The notes beneath the pieces are model-generated. The model had not been told where the DNA came from. It made no database searches and saw only the letters and a list, made by a program, of their open reading frames with translations. A DNA stretch of 60,887 nucleotides from a virus (Duplodnaviria > Caudoviricetes), in IMG/VR virus record IMGVR_UViG_3300042476_000233, positions 1 to 60,887 of that record; one strand, 5' to 3'. The position numbers were made by a program, and so were the translations under genes. Below are positions 1,958 to 53,173 of this stretch, in pieces. Positions within the stretch are counted from its first letter, which is position 1. The number at the start of each line of letters is the position of its first letter.

Positions 1958-3238
1958 TTAGACGGTGCCGTTGGCGGTGATGTCACTCAGCGCGGTGAGC
2001 ACGCCAGTGGAACTGATGGACAAAATCGGGGTGCCGTTGTAACTGATCACCAGTTTAGTGCCGGACTGCGCCACTGTGAAGTTGGTCGTGGCCAGCGTGG
2101 TGGCTGCTGCGGCAGTTGTTGCCGTGGTCGCAGATGTGGCGGTAGTGGCTGAAGTTGCGGTGGTCGCGGATGTCGCGGATGTGGCCGTGGCCGCGTTGCC
2201 GCTGATGTTGATGCCCCAGGTGCCGCTTGCGCCCGTGCCGGTATTTGACGGCACCGAAAGGTTTGACCGAGCAGTAGCCGCATCCGAAGCCCCCGTACCG
2301 CCGTTGGCCACGGCCAGCGTGCCGGTGAAACTGATGTTGGGCGTTGCCCCGCCAGACGAGGCCAAGGGTGCCGAAGCAGTAACCGCTGTGATCGTACCGC
2401 CCGAGCCAGAGGCCGACAGCGTGCCACCTGCAAAACTGATGCCCGATCCGATGGTGACGTTGCTGAACCCACCCGCGCCGTTGCCATACAGGATGGCCGT
2501 GCCGGACGTGGCCGGAGCGTAGTCAGTACCCGCCACAGCCGCAGTGAACGCACTCGTCCCGCTGGCCTTGACGATGCCCGTCAGGGTGTTCACCCCCGTA
2601 CCGCCGTTGGCCACAGGCAGGATGCCGGTGACATTTGTCGTCAGGTTGGCAAACTGAGTTGATGTCGTTCCCGTGCCGCCGTTGGCTATAGGCAAAGTAC
2701 CGGAGACTTGGGAGGTCAAACTGACCGCAGACAGCGAGCCGCCAAGCGTCAGAGAGCCGGTGGAGGTGACCGTACCACTGAGCGTCAAGCCCTGAACTGT
2801 GCCGGTGCCGGACACCGAGGTCACCCCGTCTGCCGTCGAGGTGGAGATCGTGACGAAGTCCGTACCGGTCCAAGCCACAAGCGCCCGAGCACCCGCAGCG
2901 ACAGAAGTGCCAGTGGTGGCAGAACCCTTGACGACAACCGCCGCGTCTGACTGGTTGTGGACGATGTAGGCTTTGCTGGTGCTGGGAGCGATGATGTTCC
3001 GCGTGACACCCGGCGAGCCAGTAGGGACGAGGATCGCGCACCGCGCCTGATTGACCGCACCGGAGCCGGTGGTGGTCAGAGTCCAATCGCTCAGAGCGAC
3101 TGTTTGGGTGGCCGTCGCAGCAATGGAGTCTTCGACCAACTCCGTGATGCTGTTGTTGACCGTAGTCCCCCAGGTGCCGTCGAGTTCGCCCTCGACTGGA
3201 AGAGCAAACCCGAGCAGTGAGGTGTACGCGGTGGTCAT
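1958..3238 (-). CDS. tail fibre/tail structural protein
   Basis: 426 aa S/T/G-rich; repeated LPVANGGTG and GTWGINISGNAATAT motifs. Confidence 0.8.
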   Translation of the reverse strand: MTTAYTSLLGFALPVEGELDGTWGTTVNNSITELVEDSIAATATQTVALSDWTLTTTGSGAVNQARCAILVPTGSPGVTRNIIAPSTSKAYIVHNQSDAAVVVKGSATTGTSVAAGARALVAWTGTDFVTISTSTADGVTSVSGTGTVQGLTLSGTVTSTGSLTLGGSLSAVSLTSQVSGTLPIANGGTGTTSTQFANLTTNVTGILPVANGGTGVNTLTGIVKASGTSAFTAAVAGTDYAPATSGTAILYGNGAGGFSNVTIGSGISFAGGTLSASGSGGTITAVTASAPLASSGGATPNISFTGTLAVANGGTGASDAATARSNLSVPSNTGTGASGTWGINISGNAATATSATSATTATSATTATSATTATTAAAATTLATTNFTVAQSGTKLVISYNGTPILSISSTGVLTALSDITANGTV

Positions 3239-3247
3239 CGTGAATCC

Positions 3248-3430
3248 TTACTCTTTGGGCGGAGGCACCGCAACGGGCTGTCCCGCTGCCTTTTGCTGAT
3301 GCTCAACACCGATCTGGCGCATGCGCATGAACAGGTCGATGCACTCGCCCAACTGGCCCATCGCCAATTGTTTCATCAGCAGGTTGTACTCGGCAACAGT
3401 AACTTCACCCAAGTTGATCTTGTCGTTCAT
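3248..3430 (-). CDS. small helical protein, possible fibre assembly factor
   Basis: 60-aa ORF with GGAG RBS in tail cluster. Confidence 0.6.
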   Translation of the reverse strand: MNDKINLGEVTVAEYNLLMKQLAMGQLGECIDLFMRMRQIGVEHQQKAAGQPVAVPPPKE

Positions 3431-3443
3431 TCAAAGCACTCCA

Positions 3444-3797
3444 TTAAGGCGTGGGAGGGGTTGGCGCGGGCGGTGCCCACGGTAGCGGAGGTTCCGTTAC
3501 AGGGTTGACTTTAGCCGCAATTTGCTGCGCGATCTGCTCGTTGACGTGCTCTTCATAACTGCCGGTAACCACCGGCTGAATCCACCCCAGCACAATGGCC
3601 TGAGTGAGTTGGTCGAACGGCACGAAGTCCGGCTGATCCGGGGTAGGCGTGAAAGGCGTGGCGCCGTTGAAGGTGCCGGTGTTGCCGTTCTCGTCCGTGC
3701 CGGTCTTTGTCCAGTACGTCTGCACGACGTAGTTGGTTTCACTGCCGACGTTGGTCACCTTCATGCCGGTGACCGCCCAGGTGTATGTGATTGCCAT
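3444..3797 (-). CDS. tail-fibre-associated protein
   Basis: MAITYTW...FVPFDQLTQAIVLGWI...PPLPW pattern of the small gene commonly following phage fibres. Confidence 0.7.
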   Translation of the reverse strand: MAITYTWAVTGMKVTNVGSETNYVVQTYWTKTGTDENGNTGTFNGATPFTPTPDQPDFVPFDQLTQAIVLGWIQPVVTGSYEEHVNEQIAQQIAAKVNPVTEPPLPWAPPAPTPPTP

Positions 3798-3806
3798 GAT
3801 GTTTCC

Positions 3807-6800
3807 TTAATGTGCCCGCAGGGCGTTGAGTTCTGCCCGGAGGGCGACAACCGATTTTGCCAATTCCACGCATGCTGCCAAGGCTGCGTTGCCATAAGCA
3901 AGCGACAACGTACCGCTCGCGTCTTCACTGACCGCCTCGGGCCCGAAATCGCGGAAGTCCTGAGCAGACACGCCCATCTGACGCTCGCCGGAATCAATCC
4001 GGGTGTAGGTGCCACTCTTAATACGCGCCAGACGCTCAACGAAGTCGTCCGACAGTTCAGCCCAATCCTTCTTCAGCCGCTCATCCGAAAAGGCAGTTAC
4101 GTTACCGGCCATCGTGAGGTTGCCAGACATGTCCATTTGGAAGCGGTTTGCAGGTGCAGACCAGCCTCCGATGCGGAGTACGTTGTCCGAATCCAGACCC
4201 ATGTTGACGGCGTAACTGCCGCCACGATGGAACGACATGAACGCACTATTTCCGCCAGTGGCATAGGCTTGAAGCGGCGGGTTGCTTAATGACCCGGAGG
4301 TGCCGCCCAGGTTTGACTGGAAATACCAAGTGCCGTACACAGTTGCGTTATTAAGCGAAGAACTGCTCGCCGGGTCGAGGTAATAGGAGGTGTTGTTGTA
4401 GTCGTAGAAGATTGTTCCGCGAATATCAGCCGGAGTTACCAGTCTGCCGCCGCCCCACGCGCCTTGGAATCCACCGTTCTCCAAGATAAGCATGCCGTGA
4501 GAGGCAAGGTTTGACGCCACACCACCCGCGTTCGGATGCGACCACGCAATACCGTACAGGTTGCCCGTGCCCGTTCCGTTTGCCGGGAGAATATAGGATT
4601 CCCCCATTGAAAACACGGCTTGGTAGCGGAATGAGTCATACAGTCCAACCTGCCCGATACCGTAGTTTCGGGACACCATGTTGGAGTTGTAGTACACCTT
4701 GTTGAGTTCAGATGTACTTGCCGGGTCTACGTAATACCCGGTGTTATCGCTGTCATAGAAGATGGGGGCGCGGGCACTATTCGCAAAAATACTGTACCCA
4801 CGATCTACGCTGAAGTAAGAGTCATAGTAATAACGCCAGTACCAGCCCACAGCACTGTCATGTATGCCAGTTGTAACTCCACCATTATTGGTGTCGGTCA
4901 TCAATGTTATGCGCGAACCAAGGCCGTACCCAGTCCACGAATTGCGACCGACTGCATAAGTTGTTACGTTGCCGTATTGGTTGCCTCCAGACTGCGGAGC
5001 CCACAATCCATACCCGTAGGTCTGGAAATAAAGACCCGTGTCGCCCTGGGGACGGAACCAGTTGTTTGCAAGAACGTAACTTAATTGCGTAGTGCCCGCC
5101 GGATCAACGTAATACCCGGTGTCGTTGCTGTCGTAGAAGATGGGGGCGCGGAAGGAGCCGCTTGCAAAAACGTTACCGGAGGTATCAATTCCGGCAATTG
5201 TTGCGCCTGCGGCTTCCGAATAGAAGTGGAAATCTGCGGTACTAACCACTTGGTTAGCCGTCCGTTTACCAACATACCAACCACTACCTGATCCGCCGTT
5301 ATAGCGAACCATTGCTTCATAACCATTGCCGGGATTGATATAAAGGTACTTATTGGAAGCACCAATAAGGGTAAGATCAAAAAGAGCGGATGTACTCGCC
5401 GGGTCTACGTAATACCCGGTGTTGTTCAAGTCGTAAAAAATAGGCGCGCGCAAACTACTGGTATGCGACAACAGGCTTGCATTAATATCTACCCACGTGG
5501 CGCTGCTGTCATTACTACGGAGGTAGTAATTTGACGCATTCATGTAAATGGATGCGTTGTTACCTAACCATAATTTTGTAGCCCCACTAGGATCGTAGAA
5601 TTCCGTCCATGTAGCGCCACGGTTTAGAGCGTTTACCCCGCCAAGTTGTAATAGGTTGCCGCTCAGGTTCAGACCAACAAACGTCGGGCTGTTTCCAGTG
5701 CCTAAGTTCTGGTTAATCGTGTACGCCGTGATATTGCTGGACGTACCCGTAATAGAGATGCCCCAAGTACCCGAGGCACCGCCGCCCGTCAGCGTGGGGG
5801 CGTAGGAGTTGTAGTTGCCTGCATGGAGGACTTGGTTGCCGCCTTGTTGCAACGCTCCTGTAGCTACGTTGACTGTGCTGCCTGTAAGCCTTAACGAAGC
5901 GCCGGAAGATTGAAGGTTCAGTGTGCCATAAGTGCTGGTGTTGCGGTCGTAGACAATAATGTAGCCTTCGCCACTGCTCATGCCCACTTCAACTGCTTGC
6001 CCCGTTGCGGCATTCCCGCTATACCAGCCTGTAAAACGCCCCTGCCCCGTGGTGCTAACGTCACCAGAAAAATTACGCTGAGAAGTGGTAGTTGAATTGG
6101 TAGCCGTAGCAGCATTGCCGCTGATTGAAATGCCCCACGTCCCGCTTGCGTTCGCACCGGTTGTGCTTGGCGCGCCGATGGTGTTGTAGGAGACGGTCAG
6201 AGCACCACTGCCGTTGAAGCCGTTACCCGATGCCGCCCCCGCGCCGCTGTTGTTGAACGTGACGGAGTTGCTGACCTGCGTAGCCGTGGTCGAGGTTGTG
6301 GAGGTCGTCGCAGTCGCGGCGTTACCCGTGATGTTGATGTTCCACGTACCAGAAGCACCAGAGCCGGTCACAGACGGGATGTCAGTGCCGATCACTAGAC
6401 CCAGATTGCTGCGGGCTCCAGAAGCATCCGTCGCGCCCGTGCCGCCGTTGACCAACTGAAGCGTGCCGCTGACATGCGTCTGAAGACCAATCTTGCCCCA
6501 GGCAGGAGCCGTGCCCACACCACCCGAAATCAGGGCGTTGCCAGTGGCTACGTCAGCCAGTTTGGCCAGAGAAGTCGCCCCGTCTGCGTACAGCAGATCG
6601 CCCACCGTGTAGGACGTGATACCGGTGCCGCCGTAGGCTACACCAATCGTTGAGGCATTCCATGTACCCGCCGCAAGCGTGCCAACCCCGGTAATGCCGG
6701 TGTAGGAGCCAGACAGCCGCGCCACAGGCAACGTGCCCGAGGTGATGTTCGATGCGTTGGTCGTGTCTGTCGTAGCCGACGCAGCCAATCCTGACACCGC

Positions 6801-30294: not shown

Positions 30295-30489
30295 ATGAAG
30301 TTCTACGAGATCGAACTCAGGCGCGAGTCCTACATCACCGTTGTCGTCAGCGGCACCTCTGCGGAAGAAGCAGCGGAAAAGCTCCTCAACAACTTGGAGG
30401 AGTACGTCGATGGCGACCCCGATGAAGCCGACTGGGACATCACCGATATCAACGAAGCGGAAAGAACCGAGGAGGACAGAGCAGAATGA
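30295..30489 (+). CDS. small acidic protein
   Basis: MKFYEIELRRESYITVVV..SAEEA. Confidence 0.7.
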   Translation: MKFYEIELRRESYITVVVSGTSAEEAAEKLLNNLEEYVDGDPDEADWDITDINEAERTEEDRAE

Positions 30490-30647
30490 AAACACGCGCA
30501 TTGAAACTGGTACGTGAGTTGTTCGCCGTGGACTATGTGCCGCTGCACACGCAGCGCCACAACCAACGGCAGTGGGTCAAGAGCGTTCGTCAACTGGGTG
30601 ACCGATGGCTACTCGCAAAACCACTCGACCTGCCCAAGAAGCACTAG
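30486..30647 (+). CDS. small hypothetical protein (53 aa)
   Basis: ATGA overlap; MKTRALKLVR...LGDRWLLAK read by hand. Confidence 0.6.
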   Translation: MKTRALKLVRELFAVDYVPLHTQRHNQRQWVKSVRQLGDRWLLAKPLDLPKKH

Positions 30648-30766
30648 ACCCACCACCCAAGGTCTGGCCCTTCCCAACGTGGAAGGGCCGACCGTACAAG
30701 CAACCAAAACAACAAAAACCCGATCCGGTGGCGGGACTACCACCAGCACTGTTCTAGGAGAAAGCA

Positions 30767-31423
30767 ATGATCAAAGAAGAAACCTGCATCATCAGCCCGC
30801 CGAAGTTCGGCGTCACCGACTTCTACATCGAGGGCGCTGCGCCCCTGGTGGTGGAGCGGTTCAGCAAGAAGGCTGAACTCATGGCCAAGATGGCCGAGGG
30901 CCAGTCAGCCAAGAACAAGAAGGCCCGCGACGCACGGGACTACGACAAGGAAGCCGAAGAGGCGCGCTATCGCAGCATCGATGGGTGGGAGGGCATGAAC
31001 GCCGCCGCGTTCCGTGCCGCCATGATCAGCGCCTGCCGACTCGTGGGGTTCAAGATGACGCTGGCCAAGTTGTCTGCGTTCATCGAGGCCGATGGGTTCG
31101 ACAAGAACGATGGCGTCCCCCTCGTGCGCATCTACGGCGAGAGTCAGGTTTACACGGCGCATACTCGTAACGCTACGGGTGTGGTCGATGTGCGTTCCCG
31201 TCCCATGTATCGCAACTGGGCCGCGCGTCTGCGTGTCCGGTACGACATGGATCAGTTCAAGATGGCCGATGTCTTGAACCTTGTCTCCCGGTGTGGGATG
31301 CAAGTGGGTATCGGTGCAGGCCGTCCCGACAGCAAGGCTTCTGCCGGATGCGGGTTCGGTCTGTTCAACGTAGTCCCGAGTGATCGGGAGAAGGAAGTGG
31401 TCGCCAAGTACGGCATCCAATAA
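30767..31423 (+). CDS. solo RAMP/Cas7-like RNA-binding protein (candidate guide-RNA effector)
   Basis: N-terminal strand FYIEGAAPLVV, helix AAAFRAAMISA, C-terminal Gly-rich loop VGIGAGRPDSKASAGCGFGLF; stop codon abuts the pentamer array. Confidence 0.7.
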   Translation: MIKEETCIISPPKFGVTDFYIEGAAPLVVERFSKKAELMAKMAEGQSAKNKKARDARDYDKEAEEARYRSIDGWEGMNAAAFRAAMISACRLVGFKMTLAKLSAFIEADGFDKNDGVPLVRIYGESQVYTAHTRNATGVVDVRSRPMYRNWAARLRVRYDMDQFKMADVLNLVSRCGMQVGIGAGRPDSKASAGCGFGLFNVVPSDREKEVVAKYGIQ

Positions 31424-31942
31424 GGCAGGCTAGGCTCGTCTTGGTATCGACAGGCCCGTCCCGGTTAGGCAGGTTCGGCTCGTCCTGGCTAGGCGCGGTG
31501 CAGTACGGTTCAGCAAGGCAGGCGGGGCTAGGCGCGAATAGGCGCGTTTCGGCAGCGCGTGGCGAGGCAAGGCAGGTGCGTCAAGGCGGCGCGGGGCTTG
31601 GATCGACCCGGACAGGCAAGGCAGGTCTGGCGTGGACAGGCGGGTTCGGGCGAGGCACGGTTGGGTACGGCAAGGCAGGCGGGGCTGGGCTAGTCTAGTT
31701 CTGGTAGGGCAGAGCATGTTTCGGCAAGGCAGGCTTGGCAGGGCTCGGAGCGGCAGCGTCGGGCTAGGTATGGCACATCACGGCAGGCAAGGCTAGGCGG
31801 GTTCCAGTGCGGTCAGGTAAGGCTAGGCGAGGCAGGTCAGGAAAGGCCCGGCTTGGACGGGCGAGGTGCGGCGAAGCGAGGCAACGCACGGCAGGTAAGG
31901 CAAGGAAAGGCATCGCAGGGCCGGGCGCGGTGTGGTACCGCA
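31424..31942 (+). repeat. non-coding GGY-NN pentamer array, ten units (candidate guide-RNA array)
   Basis: Units start with GGCA at 31424, 31468, 31517, 31571, 31620, 31674, 31728, 31782, 31831 and 31890, each followed by 8-11 in-phase pentamers. Confidence 0.9.
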
Positions 31943-31968
31943 GGCATTTAACTTTTTAAGGAGAAAGC

Positions 31969-32424
31969 ATGAAAGAGGAACGGAAACTTTTGACTGACAT
32001 GGCACGGCGCAACGGCGGCGTGCTCAAGGTAGAGGACGTGATCGCTGAGGCAAGCAGTGCCGACAGCATCCTGCACAAACACTTTGAGTGGGACGACACG
32101 AAGGCTGCTGAGAACTACCGCAGGGAGCAGGCACGCTCGCTGATTCAGCGGTGCAAGATCACGCTGGTGGAGGGCGAGCCCGTATCCGTGCGGGCGTTCG
32201 TCAGTCTGCCGACTGATCGAGAGAGTGGCGGAGGCTACCGCCTCACGTCGGAGGTCATAAGCAACGAATCCCAGAAGGAGGAACTGCTGCGCGACATCCA
32301 GTTGACCATCGCCCGCTGGTCGCAGAAGCTGCACCTGCTCGATCAGGACATCGCTGAACTGCTCGAAGAGGTGGATAACCGAATCAATAGTAAACAGGCA
32401 GACGCTACGCGGGTAGCGGCCTGA
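31969..32424 (+). CDS. array-associated accessory protein
   Basis: NGGVLKVEDVIAEA...LHKHFEWDDTKAAENYRREQARSLI; AAGGAGAAAGC RBS right after the array. Confidence 0.8.
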   Translation: MKEERKLLTDMARRNGGVLKVEDVIAEASSADSILHKHFEWDDTKAAENYRREQARSLIQRCKITLVEGEPVSVRAFVSLPTDRESGGGYRLTSEVISNESQKEELLRDIQLTIARWSQKLHLLDQDIAELLEEVDNRINSKQADATRVAA

Positions 32425-32441
32425 ACCCATAGGAGCAAACC

Positions 32442-32567
32442 ATGCAGAGACTCAACGAAGATGACGGACTCGACGAACTGGGCTGGCTCGCCGCCATGCT
32501 GGGCGCCCTTGGCTTCCTGTTCTTCGCCCTGGTGTACTTCCTGCACTGGGCGGGGTGGCTTACATGA
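32442..32567 (+). CDS. small membrane protein (41 aa)
   Basis: AGGAG RBS; one hydrophobic helix. Confidence 0.6.
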   Translation: MQRLNEDDGLDELGWLAAMLGALGFLFFALVYFLHWAGWLT

Positions 32568-32683
32568 AATGGCTTGGTGAATTCATCGTCCTGTACTGGC
32601 TGATCACCGTCTTGGTCGTGGTGTTCCTCGCCCCGTTCGTGACGCTGATGATGTTGATCAGTTATTTGTGGGGGTTGGTATGA
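32564..32683 (+). CDS. small membrane protein (39 aa)
   Basis: ATGA overlaps at both ends; almost entirely hydrophobic. Confidence 0.55.
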   Translation: MKWLGEFIVLYWLITVLVVVFLAPFVTLMMLISYLWGLV

Positions 32684-44552: not shown

Positions 44553-44757
44553 GAAGGGGCAGGGGTTCTTCATCCCTGCCCTAGACCTCGACGCCACGCG
44601 TGAGGCGGGGCTAGTGGACGCTGTCAGGCAGCGGGTGGTGGACGCGCACGCTATGTACGCTATCCACCAGGGCATGCAGGGTGTGCTGTTTTACCGGCAC
44701 ACCAAGCACGTCACATCTCCCTCAACTTCGCGGCGTCCGAAGCATCCCGCACCATAG
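44521..44757 (+). CDS. small hypothetical protein
   Basis: LPWTTLEKGQGFFIPALD; last plus-strand gene before convergence; start uncertain. Confidence 0.55.
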   Translation: MSVKLPWTTLEKGQGFFIPALDLDATREAGLVDAVRQRVVDAHAMYAIHQGMQGVLFYRHTKHVTSPSTSRRPKHPAP

Positions 44758-47700
44758 ACGACAGCTTGATCTTCACCTGCTGAATCCGATCCAACAGCGC
44801 GCGCTTCTCGTCTGGCGTCTTGCTTGATGCCCGGATGGCGCCTTCGACCTTGGTCAACTCGCCCATCTCCTGCCGGTAGTAGCCCGCCAGTTCAGCCCGG
44901 GCGTACTCGTTGGCACGGGCGTCGAGCAGCGCACGGGCCTCAGCCTTGTCGCCCCGGTTGACCAACTCGTTGAACGACGACTGAACCTTGCGGGAGTCGT
45001 CCAGGGCGTCGTAGGTGCTGTTGATGACCCACCGGGCATCGTTGGGCTGGAAGGCGCTGCCAACCACCGGCATGTCGGACAGGCGCTTGGTGGCCTTCTC
45101 CGGCGTGTCCTTTGTGGGGATCGGCAGGCTTGCCGCCTGCAGCAGCGCCATACCCATCGTGCTGAAGTAGCCGCTGATGAGCGCCTCCAGTTTGATGGGG
45201 CTGACGCCCGCCGCACCACCGAAGAGCTTGGCCAGTTCGGTCGTCTTCTCGCGGTACTGATACTCCGGCAGCAGTGCCTGCTCCTTGGCCGACAGCAGCG
45301 GGCGCTCGGTAAACATCGAGTAGTTGGTCATCACCTCGATGGCAGGCTTCATGGCTTGCGGGATGAAGTAAGCAGAGCCGCCAGGGATGGTGTTGCGCAA
45401 AATGCCGAGCAACGCTTCCTTGGCTTCCTCACCCCCGCGCTCGTTGACGATGCTGTTGTAGATCGCCTCGGGCAACGCCTTGAAGATGTAGCCGATTTCA
45501 AACGGGATAGGAATGCGCAGAGGCTCCGACACGCCAGGAAGGCGGATGAACCAGTTGCCGTACTTCTCAGCAGGCAGCGCGTTCTTGTACGCCTCGTCGT
45601 CCTGCATCGCGTGGGCGTAGGCCAGGGTAGCCGCCATCAGCATGGCGCCGCGCGTGATGAGCTTGGCCTTGATCCGAGCACGCTCGCCTGCCGTAATCTG
45701 GCCAAACATTGCCCGGTACAGCACGTTCAGACCTTGCACCTGCGCGTTGAAGAACGGGTACAAGGAGTTCGCCATGTGGGCACTGGGCGACGCACCGCGC
45801 TTGTTGAAGTTCATCGACTCCAACGAGAGCATCGTGGCCTCCATCTCGGACATGCCCTGCTTGATGTAGCTGTTGTACTGAGCGCGGCGAGTCAAAGCGT
45901 CGGCTTCCATACCCGCCCACTCCAGCGCGCCGAGGGTCTTGGTAATGGCTGACCGGCCCCCGACAAGATCACGCATGATCTTGCTGAGGTCTTCCTGCGT
46001 ACCCGTGAACATCTGCCCACCGGTGATGCCGCGCCGCTCAAGCGTGCCCTTGGCAGAACTCTCGATCTCACGGAGCGCACCCAGCACGGGCGGGAAATCG
46101 GCACCAGACGCAATCGAAGCGGCCAGTGAGTCACGCATCAACTGACGCACCATGTACAGCGGGTTCAGTGTCACAGCGCGGCGCAGCAACTGCGTCGGAA
46201 CCGTAAGCGCACGCATGATGCCGGTGGTCTGGAGCGGGATGCCCTCCATGCCCTTGACCAGGATGTCCGCGTTGACGCCCGTGTTGACCTTCTTACCGCC
46301 GACTTCGACAGTATCGGTTTCAAGAACCGCGTAGCGGTCTTCGCCGTTGTGCTTGAACCGCACAACCTCCGGGCCGTCAACAGGCTTGGCTGTGATCTTG
46401 GCCATGCCCAGATCAAGCAACTCGAACATCGCGTTGCGGGTGGCCAGATTGCGCAGCGCCAAGTCCACCATCATATTGGTGTTCTGCACCGAACTGATCA
46501 TGAAGTCGAGGATCGGCTTATCGCCGCCCACCAACTCCTGCAGGTGCGGCATGTCCTTGACATTGCCCAGCTTGATCGGAGTCAGCCCACCGAGCGCCAG
46601 TTCAGCAACGCCGTTGCGCTCGCGGTACCAGGGAATGTAGTCCTTGGATGCGAGCAGTGCGTCTGCGTCTTTCTTGCTCAGCACGCCTGCCTTCTGGGCG
46701 AAGCGCACGAGGTTCTCGTTGTACTGGTTGTAGATGTCCCGAGCGTTGTCGAAAATGTCCTGCAGCCCCTCGACAGACCTAACCTGGGCCACGGTATCCC
46801 GCAGCTTCTGCTCAGTGATCTTGGGGTCGCGCAGATTGAGCTTGTCGAAGCCCACACGCTCAGCGCGCTTTGCGGCCAGATACAGGGTGAACAGACGGCT
46901 CGTAGCATCGACATCGCCGACAAGGCGTGCTGCGCCCTTGAGCGTAACGGCCACTTGCCGCAGGCTTGGGCCGGTCTGGCTCTCAACAATGAACTCGCGC
47001 TCACCGTCCCTACGCTGGACTTCGCGGACGTCCAGTGCGCCGTTGGCCACAGACTGCGCCGTGAAGTTCATGCGCTGGTCGTACATGCGCAGGTAGTACA
47101 TCATCTGCGTGCCCTTGAGCTTATCCATGTACTTGGACAGGCGCTCGAACCCGGCAAAACGATCTACCAGACCCGTCTCCATCGCCAGACCGCTGGACTT
47201 GGCGCGGATGGGTTGCCACCAAGATTGGTTGCCCGCAACGATGCTGCGCCCAAACGCATCCGCCTCGGCCAGGGCCGGGTTCAGATTGCGCGGCTGATTG
47301 AGTACCTTCGGGGCCAACAGCGCGTTGTCAGCCTGGGTCGGACGCGGCACCTTCGTCATCAGGTTATCGACCGCAGCCAACGTGGCTTCGAGCATGTTCT
47401 CCGGCGTCTTGATGCCAAGCATCCGCAAGAGCGCGCTCTTGAACGAGTCCCACATGTGGCGCAGCGTCCACTTCTGCTGCCGCATCTCTGCCTGCATCAC
47501 GTCGTCGGACAGCGCCTCAGACGCAAACTCACTCAAAGATGTTTTGGCGTTCTCGTTTGTCGCACCCTTTAACTTCTTATACGCCTCAAAAAGTTCTTCC
47601 AGTTCCCGCTTGGCACGGCGCTGATCATCCGTAAGCTGATCCTCGGGCATTTGAATGACGCGCTCGGTAGCGGCGTGCACACCTTCGTGGACAGCCGTGC

Positions 47701-50700
47701 GCTCGTTCAAACCGTACTTGGCATCCAGGCGGATAAAGGAACCGTCAGCCGCAGCCTGACCGTATGCTGCCTGCCCGTCCGGGTCACGCAGATCATTGAC
47801 AATCTCAACGCGGGTGTTGCCCAGGAGCAGCTTCAGGCGGTCTGCCACTGCGCGGGTGAGGTCGTTAGTGGTGGACTCAGCGATGTTGCTCATGACAACC
47901 GCTGCGCTCTTCTCACTATCAACTTCTTCTTTCAACGCAGGCCCTTGCGACGCAGTCGCAGCCAGTTGCTGCAGCGTTTCGGGCTTATCAAACAGTGCGT
48001 CGAGGTCTTCGGTTCCGGTTTTCAAAATGCCGGTGTCCGCAACTTCTTCAGCGTCAAACTCAGCGCGCTCCTGCTCAAGCGCCTTCTCTGCCAGTTCTTC
48101 ACTAGTGAGTTCTTCTTCGCCCTCTTCTTCGCGGCGCTGACGCTCGACTTCGCTTTCTTTGGTGGGCTTGCGGCTGCGACGGTAATCCGTCAGCAGCATC
48201 TGCTCCAGTTCAGTCAGCGGCTCCTTGCGCTCCTGCTTGTCGCGGGCCTGTTCAACAATGGTCAGTTCGGCAAGACGCGCCTTCTCTTCAGCAGTCGGCG
48301 TCTCCTTCAGCAGCGCCTGCTTTTCTCTCTTGATCCGAGCGGCCTCTGCCGTGATGGCTGTCTCTTGCCCAACACCCTTGCTGCTGTAGCGCGTGCCCTT
48401 GGGCTTGCGCTCCTTCTCAATCTCCGACTTAGTTGTGGCGGTGATATCCAGCTTGGGTGCGCCTTCACGTGCCGCAGCCTCGGCAAGTTCTTTCTGATTC
48501 AGGACGTCCTGAATCTCCTTAAGTTCGGCTTCGGTCTTGCGCTTGCGCGGCTTGGGCGGCTCAGCGACTTCTACTTCGCCACGATCAATCAGCCCCTTCA
48601 GCCACGCCTCACGACGCAACATCTCAGACAGTGCTGCTTGGTAACCAACCAGACCCTTGGGCATTACCCGGGCGTTGAGCGCGTTGGTGACCGCGTCGTT
48701 GTATGCCTTCTCAAGCGCATTAACAATAGGCATCAAGTTGGCGCGGGCCTGTGATGTCTTAGCTGCACTGTATGCACGCAACGCAGCTTCGTAGGGCGCT
48801 CGCTCCTTCACCCCTTCAACGGTCTGCGCACGAGCCTTGTCGTAGGCTTCCTTCAAAGCCTTGGTGATCGTGGTGATGTAGGCGCGATAGCCCTTGAGCA
48901 CTTGCTGAGGATTGCCCCGCACCTGCCGCATCTCGTCGGCCAGGATGGTAGGCGTGTCGTCTTCCCGTGCCGCGCGCTGTGCGTCGGTAATGGGGTCGTA
49001 CGCCATTGATCGCAGGGGCTGACCAAACCGATCAACGCCTTCGGGCGCTTTCTGCTGACGCTCAAGCGCAGCTTGCTGCGCAAGGTAACCTTCGGTGCGC
49101 TTGAGATCGGCTTTGGCTCTGTCGGCGGCGTTTGCTGCGCGGCGCGCCGCCGCCTCTTGCGCGGCTGTACGCCCCTCGATGGCGCCAATCTCTTTGGTCA
49201 GCTTGGATGCCGCCGCTTGGGCAGAACGCAGTTCTTTCTTGGCTGCGGCAAGCGCAGCGCGATCCACCGCTTCCTGGCTCTCGTATTGGTAGGCTTTGAG
49301 TTCGGCGTTAGTCAAACGCGCTATTGCGTCAACACGCGCCAGTGCCGCACCAATTGCGTCGAACTGTTGGGTCAGCGCGTTGATGTGTTTGCCGACAGCG
49401 GTCTTGCCCTCTTCCGCAACAAGCTGCTCCTTGAGCAGCGACTTGTCTTTGTCAGAAATGTTGAACTTGTCGATGAAGTCCGACGCTTGGTTGCGCGGAA
49501 TCTTGAGTTCAACAAGCGCGGCACCCAGTTCACCCTGGCGCGCCACTGCGGTCAGCACGCTGCCAAAGTTTTCCTGCACGTTAGCCAGTTCTCTGCGCAG
49601 CGAATCGGGGTCAAGCCCGGCGCTGCCAAACTGTTTCTCGGCTGCACGCAGTTTTGCCTGCTGCTCCTCGGCAACTTTCAAGTACTCGCGGATTGCAGCG
49701 ATGCGGTCGGTAATACCCGTCGTTCCTGAAACTGTAGCCGTCTCAGGAATCTCAAGGGACTCAAGCGCACTCAATTCTTTCTTGAGCGCCCGAATCTGCG
49801 TGGCAGGCAGCATCTCTGCCCGCACGGCTTCAATATCGGCAATGACCGCGTTGAGCTTGGCGATCTTCTCGTTCAGTTCGTCAAGCTGCTTGCGCGCCCG
49901 CTCCAGCTTCTTAGCGTCGGGTTCAAACTGTTTGCGCAGACGATCAGCCTCTGCGCTGTCGAGGAATCGCTGGAACCGACCAGGGGTAGCGCGCTCGGTA
50001 ACGAGCTTTGCCTGCTCTTCGGGGAACAGGCTCGTCTGCCCCATTTCGCCTTCGCGTACACGTTCAGCCTGCTCCACAAACGGCTCAAGCTCAGCCTGAA
50101 GAGACAGCGGCAGCGCCTTGGTGCTGGGGCCGCGAAGAGTGCCGGGAACAAGTTGATCGCCCTCAACGCGAGTGGGCGTAAAGTCACGTGCGGGGCGCTT
50201 TGTTACTGCCGCCTTGGCTTGCGCCATTTTGCGCAAGTTCTCGGGCACTCGGCCTTCTTCAAAGTCAGCAAAAGACTCAGCACGCGCCTGCTCGGGCTTC
50301 ATGCCTGCGTTGACCTTCTGCTGATACAGCGCCTGCTTGATGATGTCTTCTGCCGTGGCACTTTCAGTAGCGGCCACGTCCGCGCGGCCCTCAGCGGGAA
50401 ATGCCTGCAGCGTAGTCTTGCGACCCGCGCCTGGACGTGCCATGCCCTCTTCGCCGCTTTCGATGCGACGAAGCTGCTCATCAAGGAGGCTATACAAACT
50501 ACGGGCAGGTGCAGCGCCTGTACCTTCAGGCGATATCTTCTTCGGGCGGTCTACCTTCGCAACCTGCTCAGTATCCACGAGCATTTTGAGAATCTGCTCG
50601 TCGGTTTGTTTTCCTTGCTTGCCAAAACTTGCCAGGGGGATGTTTTTGCCTTGCCGCAAACGCACATCAGCCACATCAGGCTTAATGTTTCTCTGCTCAT

Positions 50701-53173
50701 CAACAGGGCGAAAGACTTCTACCGTAACTTCGCTGCCGTCTTCCAAGCGCGCAGGGTAGGAAATTTTTGCTTCTTTCCCACTTTTGGTAATTACATATCC
50801 TGGCGTAGTGGCACCAGTCGTGTATGTAACGCCCGGTTTGAACGCGCCGGGAACCTGCTCTAGTTCTGCAACCTCACGGTCTTTCTCAGGGAGCGAACGC
50901 TCCATCCGGCTCAGGAACTCGTATGCCTCGTCAGACAGGCGGTTACTGGCCATCGCCCGGGTAAGGCGCTCTTGCAGTTCCTCGCGGGTGACTTCACGCG
51001 CAGCAGGCTCAGCCTCGCCAAACAAACGGAACTCACCCTTGGCGCGGCGGGCTTCGCCCGTGGGCTTGAGGACGTTGCGCGGGACAAGTCCCTGCTCCCC
51101 GAGATCGGTGGTGATGTCGAACAGCCTGCGGTTGACCTCTTTGCCAAGCGCGTTCTGTGCACGCTCAAGTTGAGTAGCGCGGCGCTCAAGGCGAACCTTC
51201 TCGTCGCCTTCGGCAGTCTTGGCCTTCTCCTGCACATCGCGCAGGAGTGCCGTCGCGCGGTCGTAGCGCATGGTGGCCGGAGCCATTGAAAGCTGTTGCG
51301 TCAGACTGGCCATCACGCGGTTCTGCTGCGCAGGCTCCGTCGCTGCCATCATCCTATCGATGAGGTTTTCAGCTTCCTTGGGCAGCGCAAACTCAGGGCG
51401 GGGGACAACATCGCCCATGCTGCGCTGGAAGCCCGCAACGTCTTGCTGCGGGGCAGTACTGGCTTCAAACGCTTTGCGTGCCTGCTCTTGTTGTGCAGTG
51501 CGCGCCGCCGCTTTCTCTTGTCGTTCTGCCTCGTCAGCCTTCTTCTGCTCTTCAAGTGCGTCGAGTTGCAGCTTCAACCCACCAAGAATTGCGTTGCTCT
51601 CACGCTTCTTAAGACCGGGGATTGGCTCGTTCGCTTCTACAAGCGCCTTTGCCATAGCCGGGTCTTGCATCAGGTAGGCCACATAGAACGCAGGGCGCTC
51701 ATTGGCTTCTCTTGAGTCTACGTACGCCTGTTCGTTTGCAAGATTGATGCGCGACTGTGCGTACGTCAATGCCGGTGAGGGGGGTAGCCCGAAGTCTTCT
51801 TCGCCCGTAAACACCCGCTGTTGTGCGAGGGGGGACGTAAGGTCAACACCGGCCTGCTCCATCTGGTATTCCAGAGGGCTGAGCGCAGCAATACGCTTTT
51901 GTTCGTCGGTCAGTTCAGGCGGCTTCGGCGGTGCCGGGGGCACAAGCGACTTAACTCGGTTGTACTCGGGCGCCTGTTCCTTCAGTTGCGTCGCCAGTTC
52001 GTTGCGGCGCTTCTTCTGGGCCTCATAGGTCTGCTTCTCAGCAAACGAAGCGCCGGGAGGCAGCTTCTGCTTGAGCAGTTCGCCAAGGTCGTTGTACTCT
52101 TTCTGCAGCGCGTCGTGCTGCTGCATGAAGTTGAGCGCGTACTCAGGCGTCTGTTTCTCCGCCGCAGCCTTTTCTTCGGCCAGACGCTCCTGCTCGCGCT
52201 GCTCTTTCAGCGCCTTGCCACGCTCAAGTTCTTCCCTGACCTCGACCCGCTCGCGGGCTGCACCACGCTCGGCCACACGACCGGCAGCACCGATAGGTGC
52301 AAGCAGACTGGTCTGGTACGCCGTCTCACCATACTCCTTGAGCGCGTCCTCACTGAGCAGCGGCAGGCCTGCCTGCACACGCTCCAGCATCTGTTGCGTG
52401 ACTTCAGTGGGGATCTCCGCCATCGCGCCAACCGCCGTGCCCTTGGCCAACGTCTTGAGCAGCGTCTCCTTGGCGAGCTTCTCAGCGCCTTCTTCGGCGC
52501 CTTTCTCCAGCATCTTGGCAACACCAGGGCCAAGCGCCTTACCGGCCAGGGTGCGGCCTAGCGGAACAAAAGTAGCAGCGACGTCCAGGGCGGCTTGCGG
52601 AGCGGCTGCACCATAGGCAGCAGCACGACTGATGGGTTGGCCCTCAGCGGCTTGGCGCTGAATGTTGCCTCCAGCCTGTTGGAAGAACGATGGCGCAACA
52701 GCACCGGCAAGACCGCCGACAACACCGCCCACGGGGCCAAAAGCAGCACCGGCCATAGCGCCAAGGCGCGCGCCTGCAAGCGTGGTAGCAATATTGGGAG
52801 CCTGCTCAGCCAAGGCGTAGGGCACTTGGCTAATGACCTCTCCGGCAGCGGGCAGCAGCCCGCGCTCTTGGTAGGCTTTCTTGACCCGGTCAAGGCTGAC
52901 TTGCTCAGCGTAACGGCGCTGAATGTCTTCTTCCCGAAGACGCGCTTCTCTTGCCGCCTCCTCGGGGGCGACGACGCCTTTGACACCTGCGCGCAGGGCG
53001 CTCAGTGCAGATTCTGCACCCTTGCCGACAGCGGCAAGAACACCTTCTGAGGGCTTAGGCTGCTGCGCGATCTGCTGCTTGACTACAGCAATGATCTGTT
53101 CTTCGGAAGCGCCTGCTGGCCCCTCCACATCGTAAATTCTCCCGTCCGGGCCTTGTACGCTGTAAATGGGCAT
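44711..53173 (-). CDS. giant polyvalent internal virion/ejection protein (metallopeptidase motif, LPD38-like C-terminus)
   Basis: 2820 aa; long coiled coils; AVHEGVHA; C-terminal PFFNAQVQG...RIPIPFEIGYIFKALPE. Confidence 0.8.
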   Translation of the reverse strand: MPIYSVQGPDGRIYDVEGPAGASEEQIIAVVKQQIAQQPKPSEGVLAAVGKGAESALSALRAGVKGVVAPEEAAREARLREEDIQRRYAEQVSLDRVKKAYQERGLLPAAGEVISQVPYALAEQAPNIATTLAGARLGAMAGAAFGPVGGVVGGLAGAVAPSFFQQAGGNIQRQAAEGQPISRAAAYGAAAPQAALDVAATFVPLGRTLAGKALGPGVAKMLEKGAEEGAEKLAKETLLKTLAKGTAVGAMAEIPTEVTQQMLERVQAGLPLLSEDALKEYGETAYQTSLLAPIGAAGRVAERGAARERVEVREELERGKALKEQREQERLAEEKAAAEKQTPEYALNFMQQHDALQKEYNDLGELLKQKLPPGASFAEKQTYEAQKKRRNELATQLKEQAPEYNRVKSLVPPAPPKPPELTDEQKRIAALSPLEYQMEQAGVDLTSPLAQQRVFTGEEDFGLPPSPALTYAQSRINLANEQAYVDSREANERPAFYVAYLMQDPAMAKALVEANEPIPGLKKRESNAILGGLKLQLDALEEQKKADEAERQEKAAARTAQQEQARKAFEASTAPQQDVAGFQRSMGDVVPRPEFALPKEAENLIDRMMAATEPAQQNRVMASLTQQLSMAPATMRYDRATALLRDVQEKAKTAEGDEKVRLERRATQLERAQNALGKEVNRRLFDITTDLGEQGLVPRNVLKPTGEARRAKGEFRLFGEAEPAAREVTREELQERLTRAMASNRLSDEAYEFLSRMERSLPEKDREVAELEQVPGAFKPGVTYTTGATTPGYVITKSGKEAKISYPARLEDGSEVTVEVFRPVDEQRNIKPDVADVRLRQGKNIPLASFGKQGKQTDEQILKMLVDTEQVAKVDRPKKISPEGTGAAPARSLYSLLDEQLRRIESGEEGMARPGAGRKTTLQAFPAEGRADVAATESATAEDIIKQALYQQKVNAGMKPEQARAESFADFEEGRVPENLRKMAQAKAAVTKRPARDFTPTRVEGDQLVPGTLRGPSTKALPLSLQAELEPFVEQAERVREGEMGQTSLFPEEQAKLVTERATPGRFQRFLDSAEADRLRKQFEPDAKKLERARKQLDELNEKIAKLNAVIADIEAVRAEMLPATQIRALKKELSALESLEIPETATVSGTTGITDRIAAIREYLKVAEEQQAKLRAAEKQFGSAGLDPDSLRRELANVQENFGSVLTAVARQGELGAALVELKIPRNQASDFIDKFNISDKDKSLLKEQLVAEEGKTAVGKHINALTQQFDAIGAALARVDAIARLTNAELKAYQYESQEAVDRAALAAAKKELRSAQAAASKLTKEIGAIEGRTAAQEAAARRAANAADRAKADLKRTEGYLAQQAALERQQKAPEGVDRFGQPLRSMAYDPITDAQRAAREDDTPTILADEMRQVRGNPQQVLKGYRAYITTITKALKEAYDKARAQTVEGVKERAPYEAALRAYSAAKTSQARANLMPIVNALEKAYNDAVTNALNARVMPKGLVGYQAALSEMLRREAWLKGLIDRGEVEVAEPPKPRKRKTEAELKEIQDVLNQKELAEAAAREGAPKLDITATTKSEIEKERKPKGTRYSSKGVGQETAITAEAARIKREKQALLKETPTAEEKARLAELTIVEQARDKQERKEPLTELEQMLLTDYRRSRKPTKESEVERQRREEEGEEELTSEELAEKALEQERAEFDAEEVADTGILKTGTEDLDALFDKPETLQQLAATASQGPALKEEVDSEKSAAVVMSNIAESTTNDLTRAVADRLKLLLGNTRVEIVNDLRDPDGQAAYGQAAADGSFIRLDAKYGLNERTAVHEGVHAATERVIQMPEDQLTDDQRRAKRELEELFEAYKKLKGATNENAKTSLSEFASEALSDDVMQAEMRQQKWTLRHMWDSFKSALLRMLGIKTPENMLEATLAAVDNLMTKVPRPTQADNALLAPKVLNQPRNLNPALAEADAFGRSIVAGNQSWWQPIRAKSSGLAMETGLVDRFAGFERLSKYMDKLKGTQMMYYLRMYDQRMNFTAQSVANGALDVREVQRRDGEREFIVESQTGPSLRQVAVTLKGAARLVGDVDATSRLFTLYLAAKRAERVGFDKLNLRDPKITEQKLRDTVAQVRSVEGLQDIFDNARDIYNQYNENLVRFAQKAGVLSKKDADALLASKDYIPWYRERNGVAELALGGLTPIKLGNVKDMPHLQELVGGDKPILDFMISSVQNTNMMVDLALRNLATRNAMFELLDLGMAKITAKPVDGPEVVRFKHNGEDRYAVLETDTVEVGGKKVNTGVNADILVKGMEGIPLQTTGIMRALTVPTQLLRRAVTLNPLYMVRQLMRDSLAASIASGADFPPVLGALREIESSAKGTLERRGITGGQMFTGTQEDLSKIMRDLVGGRSAITKTLGALEWAGMEADALTRRAQYNSYIKQGMSEMEATMLSLESMNFNKRGASPSAHMANSLYPFFNAQVQGLNVLYRAMFGQITAGERARIKAKLITRGAMLMAATLAYAHAMQDDEAYKNALPAEKYGNWFIRLPGVSEPLRIPIPFEIGYIFKALPEAIYNSIVNERGGEEAKEALLGILRNTIPGGSAYFIPQAMKPAIEVMTNYSMFTERPLLSAKEQALLPEYQYREKTTELAKLFGGAAGVSPIKLEALISGYFSTMGMALLQAASLPIPTKDTPEKATKRLSDMPVVGSAFQPNDARWVINSTYDALDDSRKVQSSFNELVNRGDKAEARALLDARANEYARAELAGYYRQEMGELTKVEGAIRASSKTPDEKRALLDRIQQVKIKLSSMVRDASDAAKLREM

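What the first reader, a model, noticed from the sequence alone, without database searches (positions are those of the whole stretch)
31424..31942. Array grammar: ten units, each a 4-nt GGCA phase-break plus 8-11 pentamers, with distinct NN strings
Hand parsing gives unit lengths 44, 49, 54, 49, 54, 54, 54, 49, 59 and 49 nt (95 pentamers), closed by a CGCA variant at 31939. NN strings: U1 TA TC TT AT CA CC CC TA; U2 TC TC CT TA GC GC AC TC AA; U3 GG TA GC TA GC TC AG GT GA AA; U4 GC AA GG GG TT TC CC CA AA; U5 CT GT CA GG CG GA AC TG AC AA; U6 GG TG TA TA CT AG AG AT TC AA; U7 TT AG TC GC AG CG TA AT AC AC; U8 AA TA GG CC GC CA AA TA GA; U9 CA AA CC TT CG GA GC GA GA AA AC; U10 AA AA AA AT AG CG GC GT AC. 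Positions 1-3 are mostly GGC/GGT, with variants such as GTC, GGA, CGC and AGY. Positions 4-5 are near-random, and no indel breaks the phase inside a unit. A slippage microsatellite would homogenise, so this looks like information carried on a scaffold. Five units end in AA (four as GGCAA), making GGCAAGGCAGG a likely processing or boundary signal.
Basis: seen in the sequence. Interest (0 to 1): 0.9.

Follow-up and report, generated by a model that had tools for sequence, protein, structure and literature searches.

The report
Phage VIPR guide-RNA array, staggered type

Summary
Window 31424-31942 holds ten units of a 4-nt GGCA followed by 8-11 GGYNN pentamers (95 pentamers), with the NN strings as listed. 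Lag-5 G autocorrelation is z=11.5 against 1000 shuffles and is unique in the window.

The array lies between a 218-aa gene and a 151-aa gene. The 218-aa protein is a Vipr-family RAMP. Its family profile hits the solved SUSP1 Vipr at E=1.5e-7. Its AF2 model (pLDDT 92) best matches Csm3/Cas7.

VIPR was described in three 2026 bioRxiv preprints. One Vipr protomer binds each GGY, and the NN bases pair with DNA, skipping every third base. The legend of Fig. S18 in the first preprint describes "staggered vrRNA arrays" whose vrRNAs overlap by 1 nt, which is the GGCA junction seen here.

The same grammar follows the vipr gene in 64 of 67 related contigs. It also occurs in Cyanophage Cy-LDV1 and Mycobacterium phage Saal. 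Near-identical phages swap whole units, and NN bases change more slowly than the Y base.

I found no target above chance, and no RNA data exist. Verdict: a new member of a known kind.

The parts
30767..31423 (+). vipr gene: 218-aa Vipr-family RAMP (RRM core, thumb, G-loop GIGAGRP at residues 181-187)
   Evidence: phmmer against PDB sequences: 36pp_D 'SUSP1 Vipr protein', E=0.016. A 52-sequence profile gives E=1.5e-7 over the thumb to G-loop. AF2 model pLDDT 92.1. Foldseek pdb top rows are Csm3/Cas7 subunits, E=2.9e-5 and weaker. phrog_4652, no Pfam family. 2106 representatives at E<=1e-3.
31424..31467 (+). vrRNA unit U1: GGCA + 8 pentamers
31468..31516 (+). vrRNA unit U2: GGCA + 9 pentamers
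   Evidence: identical in L001/L043
31517..31570 (+). vrRNA unit U3: GGCA + 10 pentamers; replaced by a different cassette in L001/L043
   Evidence: 30/50 nt identity at 31517-31566, against 50/50 in vipr
31571..31619 (+). vrRNA unit U4: GGCA + 9 pentamers
31620..31673 (+). vrRNA unit U5: GGCA + 10 pentamers; replaced by a 9-pentamer cassette in L001/L043
31674..31727 (+). vrRNA unit U6: GGCA + 10 pentamers
31728..31781 (+). vrRNA unit U7: GGCA + 10 pentamers (last pentamer ATCAC is degenerate)
31782..31830 (+). vrRNA unit U8: GGCA + 9 pentamers
31831..31889 (+). vrRNA unit U9: GGCA + 11 pentamers
31890..31938 (+). vrRNA unit U10: GGCA + 9 pentamers; differs in L001
31939..31949 (+). array terminus CGCA-GGCA-TTT; the form GGCAGGCA followed by an A/T run closes the arrays of relatives too
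31959..31968 (+). ribosome-binding decamer AGGAGAAAGC ahead of vap
31969..32424 (+). vap-like accessory gene, 151 aa; N-terminal part possibly winged-helix-like
   Evidence: phrog_15946. Follows the array in 38 related loci. Homologues next to vipr in phage Saal (29% identity, E=2e-13) and Cy-LDV1 (35%, E=1e-15). AF2 pLDDT 88. Fold matches are weak only.

Best explanation
The stretch is the guide-RNA (vrRNA) array of a phage-encoded VIPR system of the 'staggered array' architecture. It is read left to right with the flanking genes. The RNA is a string of ten guides.

Within each guide, one Vipr protomer (product of 30767-31423) binds each pentamer. The protomer sequesters GGY and presents the two N bases. 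The concatenated NN bases then pair with a DNA strand that reads NNxNNx..., so a guide of n pentamers covers a target of 3n-1 bp, 23-32 bp here. The filament silences transcription of that DNA, most likely in a competing phage, satellite or prophage.

Guides are delimited by a one-base register slip, not by a structured tail or a ribozyme. The terminal pentamer GGCAG shares its last G with the first GGY of the next guide, which reads as a 4-nt GGCA.

Shown here: the grammar and its conservation, the Vipr homology and RAMP fold, cassette exchange between near-identical phages, and constraint on the NN bases. Inferred from published work on other VIPR members: RNP filament formation, the 1-nt skip rule and silencing. 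Not shown for any staggered array in what I could read: where the RNA is cut, or whether it is cut at all.
For: Grammar:
- Ten units with exact phase were confirmed, z=11.5.

Vipr membership:
- The family profile hits the solved SUSP1 Vipr at E=1.5e-7.
- The alignment places family-conserved R145 and invariant R186 opposite SUSP1 R138 and R179. The cryo-EM preprint names these two residues as contacts to G2 and Y3.
- The top Foldseek rows for the model are Csm3/Cas7 RAMPs.

Published definition:
- vrRNAs are 9-16 GGY/NN repeats. One protomer binds each repeat and the NN bases pair with a 1-nt skip.
- The Fig. [quoted passage not shown]

Family conservation:
- 64 of 67 loci carrying a vipr homologue have the period-5 array directly downstream. 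The other 3 hold 60 nt or less of downstream sequence.
- 475 of 479 junctions between well-formed units are exactly 4 nt, and 297 of 344 unique junctions read GGCA.
- Units hold mostly 7-14 pentamers, with a mode of 9.
- NN entropy is 3.8-3.9 of 4 bits at internal positions.
- The same grammar sits next to vipr homologues in Cyanophage Cy-LDV1 and Mycobacterium phage Saal.

Information content:
- U3, U5 and U10 are replaced as cassettes in phages whose vipr is 654/657 nt identical.
- In 56 nearest-neighbour unit pairs, substitutions per position were 19, 15, 50, 15 and 28 of 523. The NN bases are as constrained as the GG bases (p=0.35) and more constrained than Y (p=3.5e-5).

Other:
- No self-target was found in the phage's own genome. 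The best match is 13/16, which is at shuffle level. The published systems also lack self-targets.
- The array RNA is not more structured than shuffles (z=-0.6), as expected for a protein-bound single strand without a tail.
Against: No natural target was found above chance.
- Exact IMG/VR scans of U9 and of U5 (first 9 NN) gave 0 hits.
- U3 (first 9 NN) hit one lineage only, 15 copies of a P4-type integrase gene in prophages resembling Burkholderia phages. The tenth NN was mismatched, and by my own rough estimate this is about the number of lineages expected by chance for 18 specified bases.
- 280 guides of the family were scanned against 16 whole related phage records. Hits at 0-3 mismatches were 0, 4, 28 and 422, against shuffle means of 0, 1.0, 23.0 and 367. 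The 1-nt skip rule did no better than 0-nt or 2-nt skips.

There is no RNA evidence for transcription, processing or unit-length RNAs.

The G-loop differs from SUSP1. SUSP1 D177 and W178, which contact G1 and G2, align with A184 and G185 here, so GGY recognition may differ in detail.

The preprint states that only the hammerhead and single-vrRNA architectures were confirmed by sRNA-seq. The staggered model itself is therefore unverified in what I could read.
Confidence: 0.88

Rival explanations
1. The array is bound by Vipr but is not a set of independent guides. It acts as one long unprocessed RNA, either a scaffold or sponge that titrates Vipr or a competitor's Vipr, or as a cis-regulator of vap translation.
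For: There is no tail, ribozyme or structure between units, no promoter or terminator consensus inside or around the array, and no target was found. Satellites are reported to use solo vrRNAs to redirect a phage's Vipr (abstract of 10.64898/2026.10.15.759431).
Against: Cassette-wise exchange of single units and constraint on the NN bases would not be expected of a mere sponge, for which any NN would serve. The cognate vipr gene is adjacent.
Confidence: 0.06
2. A DNA-level or generic nucleic-acid element: a G-rich R-loop or replication-origin element, or an array of two-tetrad G-quadruplexes (GGNNN repeats) in the replication module.
For: The + strand is 43% G, and GC skew is +0.21 at 31001-32000. 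The array lies among early and replication genes: DUF932, DNA polymerase A, an SNF2 helicase and DUF927.
Against: Neither model needs a pyrimidine at position 3, a strict 5-nt register, or a junction that is 4 nt in 475 of 479 cases. Neither explains the obligatory linkage to a RAMP gene across proteobacterial, cyanobacterial and actinobacterial phages.
Confidence: 0.03
3. A slippage microsatellite or neutral low-complexity spacer.
For: The sequence has a short period and is G-rich.
Against: TRF finds no array. NN entropy is near maximal while GG is about 90% conserved over 4780 pentamers. The grammar is conserved in position at 67-100% protein identity of the neighbouring gene.
Confidence: 0.01
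4. The region is translated as a glycine/arginine-rich peptide.
For: ORFs of 85 aa (+, 31441-31698) and 95 aa (-, 31430-31717) exist.
Against: No ORF spans the array. Unit lengths of 5n+4 and cassette exchange shift every frame between relatives. The periodicity is 5, not 3.
Confidence: 0.01

Closest known systems
VIPR 'staggered vrRNA arrays' (legend of Fig. S18 in bioRxiv 10.64898/2026.04.26.720920)
   Same: Tandem GGY/NN tracts abut with a 1-nt overlap, so the end of one vrRNA is the start of the next. A vipr gene is adjacent, together with a small accessory gene. The system is phage-borne.
   Different: None that I can establish. The figure itself, data S4 and the type assignment are in images and supplements I could not see. 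I therefore cannot say which of types I-VII this clade belongs to, or whether Saal-like or Cy-LDV1-like loci were among the 667 representatives. The preprint text says this architecture was not among those confirmed by sRNA-seq.
Type II VIPR of Escherichia phage SUSP1 and the Pseudomonas fulva prophage (experimentally characterised)
   Same: Vipr RAMP with the thumb arginine and the G-loop GxGxxRP arginine conserved. Guides are GGYNN pentamers. A vap gene lies downstream. No self-target.
   Different: SUSP1 vrRNAs are about 100 nt, each with an invariable 3' tail of about 40 nt that forms a pseudoknot capping the filament. Here units of 44-59 nt follow each other with no tail. There are ten guides in one array, and up to about 20 in relatives L006 and L007, against one upstream plus three downstream in SUSP1. 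SUSP1 D177 and W178 are A and G here.
CRISPR arrays with class 1 Cas7/Csm3 backbones
   Same: The protein has a RAMP fold. One protomer binds per fixed RNA step. The array holds variable, exchangeable guides beside the effector gene.
   Different: The step is 5 nt with 2 informative bases rather than 6 nt with 5. There is no 28-37-nt repeat, no cas1/cas2 and no other cas genes. The system is carried by a phage.
TRAP (trp RNA-binding attenuation protein) binding sites: 11 (G/U)AG triplets with 2-nt spacers (recalled, no call)
   Same: A 5-nt step with a conserved triplet plus two free bases, in about 11 repeats.
   Different: This was only my first working analogy. The neighbouring protein is a RAMP, not a TRAP-like beta-wheel, and the free bases here are constrained.

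Membership tests
VIPR system | Vipr protein: minimal RAMP with RRM core, thumb and glycine-rich loop | tested here: met
   The profile of 52 homologues hits SUSP1 Vipr (PDB 36pp) at E=1.5e-7; the single sequence gives E=0.016. The AF2 model has pLDDT 92. The best Foldseek rows are Csm3/Cas7, E=2.9e-5 to 1e-3 with TM only 0.33-0.49.
VIPR system | vrRNA region of tandem GGY/NN pentamers (published range 9-16 repeats) next to vipr | tested here: met
   95 pentamers in ten tracts of 8-11 start at the base after the vipr stop codon. In the family the range is mostly 7-14.
VIPR system | Accessory vap gene in the locus | tested here: inconclusive
   A conserved 151-aa gene follows the array, and its homologues sit beside vipr in Saal and Cy-LDV1. 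I could not compare it with vap1-6 because those sequences are in the supplements. The fold is winged-helix-like only at Z 5-6.5, and there is no Foldseek hit at E<=1e-3.
VIPR system | vrRNAs are expressed and co-purify with Vipr | not testable with these tools
   No RNA run holds the locus.
VIPR system | NN bases match natural targets under the 1-nt skip rule better than shuffles or other skips | tested here: inconclusive
   There is no enrichment in 16 related phage genomes or in the phage's own genome. Three exact IMG/VR scans gave 0, 0 and one lineage at about chance level. The search space was small and only exact matching was possible in the large collections.
VIPR system | Carried by a phage or provirus | tested here: met
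   The record is a virus contig with a CheckV completeness of 95%. It encodes a terminase, a tail-fibre chaperone domain, DNA polymerase A and other phage genes.
Staggered vrRNA array architecture | Adjacent vrRNAs overlap by 1 nt, with no tail or ribozyme between them | tested here: met
   All nine internal junctions of the window are 4 nt in the coordinate parse. In the family 475 of 479 junctions are 4 nt. Rfam finds no ribozyme.
Type II VIPR (SUSP1 clade) | Invariable structured 3' tail (pseudoknot) after each repeat tract | tested here: not met
   Units abut directly, and the array folds no better than shuffles (z=-0.6).
CRISPR array | Direct repeats of about 28-37 nt separating spacers, with cas genes | tested here: not met
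   There is no such repeat and no Cas family among the neighbours.

The most novel reading that the evidence does not exclude
In this clade the boundary of a guide is written only as a one-base register slip (GCA|GG). The length of the Vipr filament would then be set by the phase of the RNA itself, not by a capping pseudoknot or a ribozyme, and possibly without any cleavage: ten to twenty filaments strung on one transcript. The same invariant junction would serve as the recombination handle by which whole guides are exchanged between co-infecting phages. That would be a primitive, Cas1-free way of acquiring guides.
Probability: 0.25. Interest if true: 0.65.

Novelty: new member of a known kind. 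Interest (0 to 1): 0.4.

Why it matters
VIPR is a newly described class of RNA-guided DNA recognition, proposed to predate CRISPR. This window adds a nearly complete lake phage, probably of a Burkholderiales-like host, with a ten-guide array of the one architecture that the preprint did not confirm by RNA sequencing. I also gathered about 65 relatives with 4 to about 20 guides each.

The family data give three things of use:
- A precise junction logo (GCA|GG).
- Evidence that guides turn over as cassettes while their NN bases are held constant.
- Cultured, tractable carriers of the same grammar (mycobacteriophage Saal and relatives, Gordonia phages, Cy-LDV1).

Together these make the question of how a guide is delimited without a tail directly testable. 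For annotation, such arrays are at risk of being called as ORFs: the annotated start of Saal gp51 abuts the array.

Tried and rejected
Structure and repeat searches:
- Tandem Repeats Finder found no array.
- Rfam at E<=1 gave only a chance CyVA-1 row outside the array.

Working ideas dropped once the neighbouring protein proved to be a RAMP:
- A site for a TRAP-like ring protein.
- G-quadruplexes.
- An R-loop origin.
- A CsrA or Hfq sponge.

Transcription signals and folding:
- The sigma-70 and terminator consensus scan of 30400-32600 found 0 promoters and 3 terminator-like sites, none in the array, against 1.6 in shuffles.
- RNA folding of the array gave z=-0.6.

Target searches:
- Self-target scan under skips of 0-3: nothing beyond the array's own skip-3 image.
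- Local all-against-all scan of 268 guides against the window plus loci: 4 hits at 1 mismatch and 41 at 2, against 0 and 12 in one shuffle. The counts are inflated by redundant loci.
- The cleaner repeat on 16 whole records showed no enrichment.
- The best single lead is a 9-NN guide of L029/L030 that matches window 47682-47707 (minus strand) at 17/18 positions. The match lies inside the 2820-aa gene, with the NN bases on codon positions 1-2. I expect about 0.2 such hits by chance in that search (my arithmetic), so it is only a lead.
- The U3 match to an integrase is also in wobble register, but it is 18/20 and at about chance level.

RNA and read data:
- No RNA holder is listed for the locus.
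- Laying lake-water DNA contigs X5-X8 at 85% likeness gave three joints inside the array: 31685->31789, skipping 103 nt (the summed length of U7+U8) with 9 other letters between; 31431->31649; and 31718->31940. All three were seen in X6-X8.
- Joint sides were 29-70 nt and the likeness threshold was low. I read this only as a weak hint of array-length variants.

Vap:
- No PDB sequence hit.
- No Foldseek hit at E<=1e-3.
- VIA-wide gave Z 5-6.5 on winged-helix domains, within the tool's stated noise range.

Supplements:
- Supplements and figures of the three preprints could not be seen. They may hold the type assignment, vap families and target lists for this clade.
Full report
OBSERVATION

The stretch 31424-31968 is the whole intergenic space between a 218-aa ORF (30767-31423, +) and a 151-aa ORF (31969-32424, +).
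- Ten units, each a 4-nt GGCA followed by 8-11 pentamers.
- Lengths of 44, 49, 54, 49, 54, 54, 54, 49, 59 and 49 nt, with 95 pentamers in all.
- The NN strings exactly as listed.
- A closing CGCA at 31939, followed by GGCATTT.

Pentamer positions 1-3 are G (83/95), G (82/95) and C/T (86/95). Positions 4-5 are close to even. The lag-5 autocorrelation of G is 0.503, against 0.00 +/- 0.044 in 1000 dinucleotide-preserving shuffles (z=11.5). No other part of the window reaches the threshold. Tandem Repeats Finder does not see the array and Rfam has nothing for it.

WHAT IT IS

My first working idea was a site for an oligomeric RNA-binding protein with a 5-nt step. A search of PDB sequences with the 218-aa protein then returned a single hit, 36pp 'SUSP1 Vipr protein' (E=0.016). 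With a profile of 52 homologues taken from 2106 representatives, the same hit reached E=1.5e-7 over the thumb-to-G-loop segment. The AlphaFold model (pLDDT 92.1) finds Csm3/Cas7 backbone subunits of type III CRISPR complexes as its best solved relatives (E from 2.9e-5; TM only 0.33-0.49). That Foldseek copy ends on 2026-04-08 and returned no Vipr structure.

THE LITERATURE

- From the first (PMC13142463 and the longer bioRxiv copy) I read the Results, the Discussion, the figure legends, two methods sections and the supplementary-figure legends printed in the text.
- From the cryo-EM paper (10.64898/2026.04.26.720927) I read the first part of the Results and some passages.
- From the satellite paper (10.64898/2026.10.15.759431) I read the outline, one methods section and some passages.
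- A full-text search for vrRNA found no further paper on the system, apart from one mention in a language-model preprint that I did not open.

According to these papers, a vrRNA is a run of 9-16 GGY/NN pentamers. One Vipr protomer binds each pentamer, hides GGY and presents NN. The NN bases pair with DNA that is read with one base skipped after every two. The complex silences transcription of competing phages, satellites or prophages.

The characterised type II systems have an invariable 3' tail with a pseudoknot. The first paper also mentions 'staggered arrays with overlapping vrRNAs'. The legend of its Fig. S18 says that individual vrRNAs derive from 1-nt overlapping positions, so that the end of one marks the start of the next. 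The text adds that only the hammerhead and single-vrRNA architectures were confirmed by small-RNA sequencing.

THE FAMILY

Homologues of the 218-aa gene at 67-100% identity were found on 67 IMG/VR loci. Of these, 64 carry a period-5 G array directly downstream. The other three hold at most 60 nt after the gene. The 151-aa gene follows the array on 38 loci.

Across these arrays I parsed 514 internal units:
- They hold mostly 7-14 pentamers, with a mode of 9.
- Over 4780 pentamers, positions 1-3 are G 90%, G 88% and C/T 84%.

Of 479 junctions between well-formed units, 475 are exactly 4 nt. Of 344 unique junction contexts, 297 read GGCA. The core is nearly invariant: C 98%, A 97%, then G 97% and G 100%.

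NN entropy is 3.8-3.9 of 4 bits inside units, 3.4 bits at the first pentamer and 3.1 bits at the last. Arrays range from about 4 units to about 20 (L006, L007), and they end in GGCAGGCA plus an A/T run.

The grammar is not confined to this lineage. tblastn found vipr homologues in 30 phage records: 25 Mycobacterium, 4 Gordonia and 1 cyanophage.
- Cyanophage Cy-LDV1 has two GGCA-punctuated arrays flanking the vap homologue.
- Mycobacterium phage Saal has one array upstream of its vipr homologue.
- The Saal and Cy-LDV1 neighbours are homologues of the 151-aa protein.

More distant loci (L096, L097, L099) show looser versions, with TGCA, AGCA or GGCT junctions.

DO THE NN BASES CARRY INFORMATION?

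First, the phages behind L001 and L043 have a vipr gene that is 654/657 nt identical to the window's. Units U3 and U5 are nevertheless replaced by unrelated cassettes, and the last unit differs in L001. The other units are identical or differ by one base.

Second, I compared 56 nearest-neighbour pairs of units that are at most 15% diverged. Substitutions at pentamer positions 1-5 number 19, 15, 50, 15 and 28 of 523 each. Of the 50 changes at position 3, 35 are C/T exchanges.
- NN sites change as rarely as the GG sites (43/1046 against 34/1046, p=0.35).
- NN sites change less often than the Y site (50/523, p=3.5e-5).

Within a guide the NN bases are therefore conserved, and diversity arises by replacing guides. 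That is what stored specificity predicts, and the opposite of what a neutral spacer predicts.

TARGETS

Here the evidence is negative or inconclusive.
- The window's guides have no match in their own genome beyond shuffle level under skips of 0-2 nt.
- Exact IMG/VR scans found nothing for U9 (22 specified bases) or for U5 (18 bases).
- U3 (18 bases) hit 15 contigs. All are the same P4-type integrase gene of prophages about 85% identical to Burkholderia phages PE067 and vB_E436.
  - The tenth NN is mismatched, and the skipped bases fall on codon third positions.
  - One lineage is about what I would expect by chance for 18 specified bases in a collection of that size (my rough estimate, not a measured control).
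- I then fetched 15 whole related phage records and scanned 280 family guides against 16 genomes:

| Skip rule | Hits at 0, 1, 2, 3 mismatches | Shuffle means |
|---|---|---|
| 1 nt | 0, 4, 28, 422 | 0, 1.0, 23.0, 367 |
| 0 nt | 0, 1, 32, 359 | 0, 1.75, 26.6, 371.5 |
| 2 nt | 0, 0, 30, 415 | 0.125, 1.6, 26.6, 360 |

- The best single hit is a guide of L029/L030 matching 17/18 inside the window's 2820-aa gene in codon register. It is not significant on its own.

The phages of this family therefore do not obviously target one another, and the true targets remain unknown. Five of the ten guides were therefore never scanned against the large collections.

OTHER CONTEXT

The record is a tailed phage about 95% complete, with a terminase, a tail-fibre chaperone domain, DNA polymerase A, an SNF2 helicase and a DUF927 protein. 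Relatives occur as prophages in Azohydromonas aeria (71% Vipr identity) and in a gammaproteobacterial MAG (68%). The DNA is held by lake-water metagenomes.

Contigs from other lake samples show joints inside the array, one of them skipping exactly the summed length of two units. I count that only as a weak hint. The array RNA folds no better than shuffles, and there is no promoter or terminator consensus around it. It is therefore probably transcribed with its neighbours. The 151-aa protein models well (pLDDT 88) but has only weak winged-helix-like structural matches.

VERDICT

The system has been in print since April 2026, including this tail-less, 1-nt-overlap architecture. I therefore file it as a new member of a known kind. 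Two questions remain open. How are guides delimited and processed without a tail? The one-base slip is the only punctuation. And what do they target?

Noticed in passing
L105 (NC_023580.1, Mycobacterium phage Saal) 2550-2795 and CDS gp51 at 2791-3537: A GGCA-punctuated pentamer array of at least four units lies upstream of the vipr homologue gp51. The annotated gp51 start abuts the array, whereas similarity to the window's Vipr begins at locus 3001 (query residue 21). The annotated N-terminus may therefore be too long.
   Followed up: partly
L104 (BK059895.1, Cyanophage Cy-LDV1) 3613-3800 and 4400-4565: Two separate staggered arrays flank the vap homologue g33, so array position relative to vipr and vap varies between lineages.
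   Followed up: partly
L006 1340-1375 and L007 5165-5200: The longest arrays (about 20 units) are two arrays in tandem. The first ends in the usual GGCAGGCATT, and a spacer of about 30 nt without pentamers then precedes the second. This may be an internal promoter or a duplication scar.
   Followed up: no
window 47682-47707 (minus strand), inside ORF 44711-53173: A 9-NN guide carried by relatives L029/L030 matches 17 of 18 informative bases under the 1-nt skip rule, with the NN bases on codon positions 1-2 of the 2820-aa gene. About 0.2 such hits are expected by chance in that search.
   Followed up: partly
L106-L120 (IMG/VR proviruses), e.g. L106 8768-8793: The first nine NN of window unit U3 match a P4-type integrase gene conserved in 15 proviruses that resemble Burkholderia phages PE067 and vB_E436. 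All differences among the 15 copies within the match fall on the skipped, third-codon positions. The tenth NN does not match.
   Followed up: partly
window 30767-31423, residues 181-187: The G-loop reads GIGAGRP, whereas most family members have GIGEGRP and SUSP1 has GVGDWRP. The acidic residue reported to bind G1 in SUSP1 is alanine in this phage.
   Followed up: no
L096 4450-4890, L099 4440-5000: Distant vap-linked arrays use looser scaffolds (NGC rather than GGY at many pentamers) and other junction tetramers (TGCA, AGCA, GGCT, AGCT).
   Followed up: no
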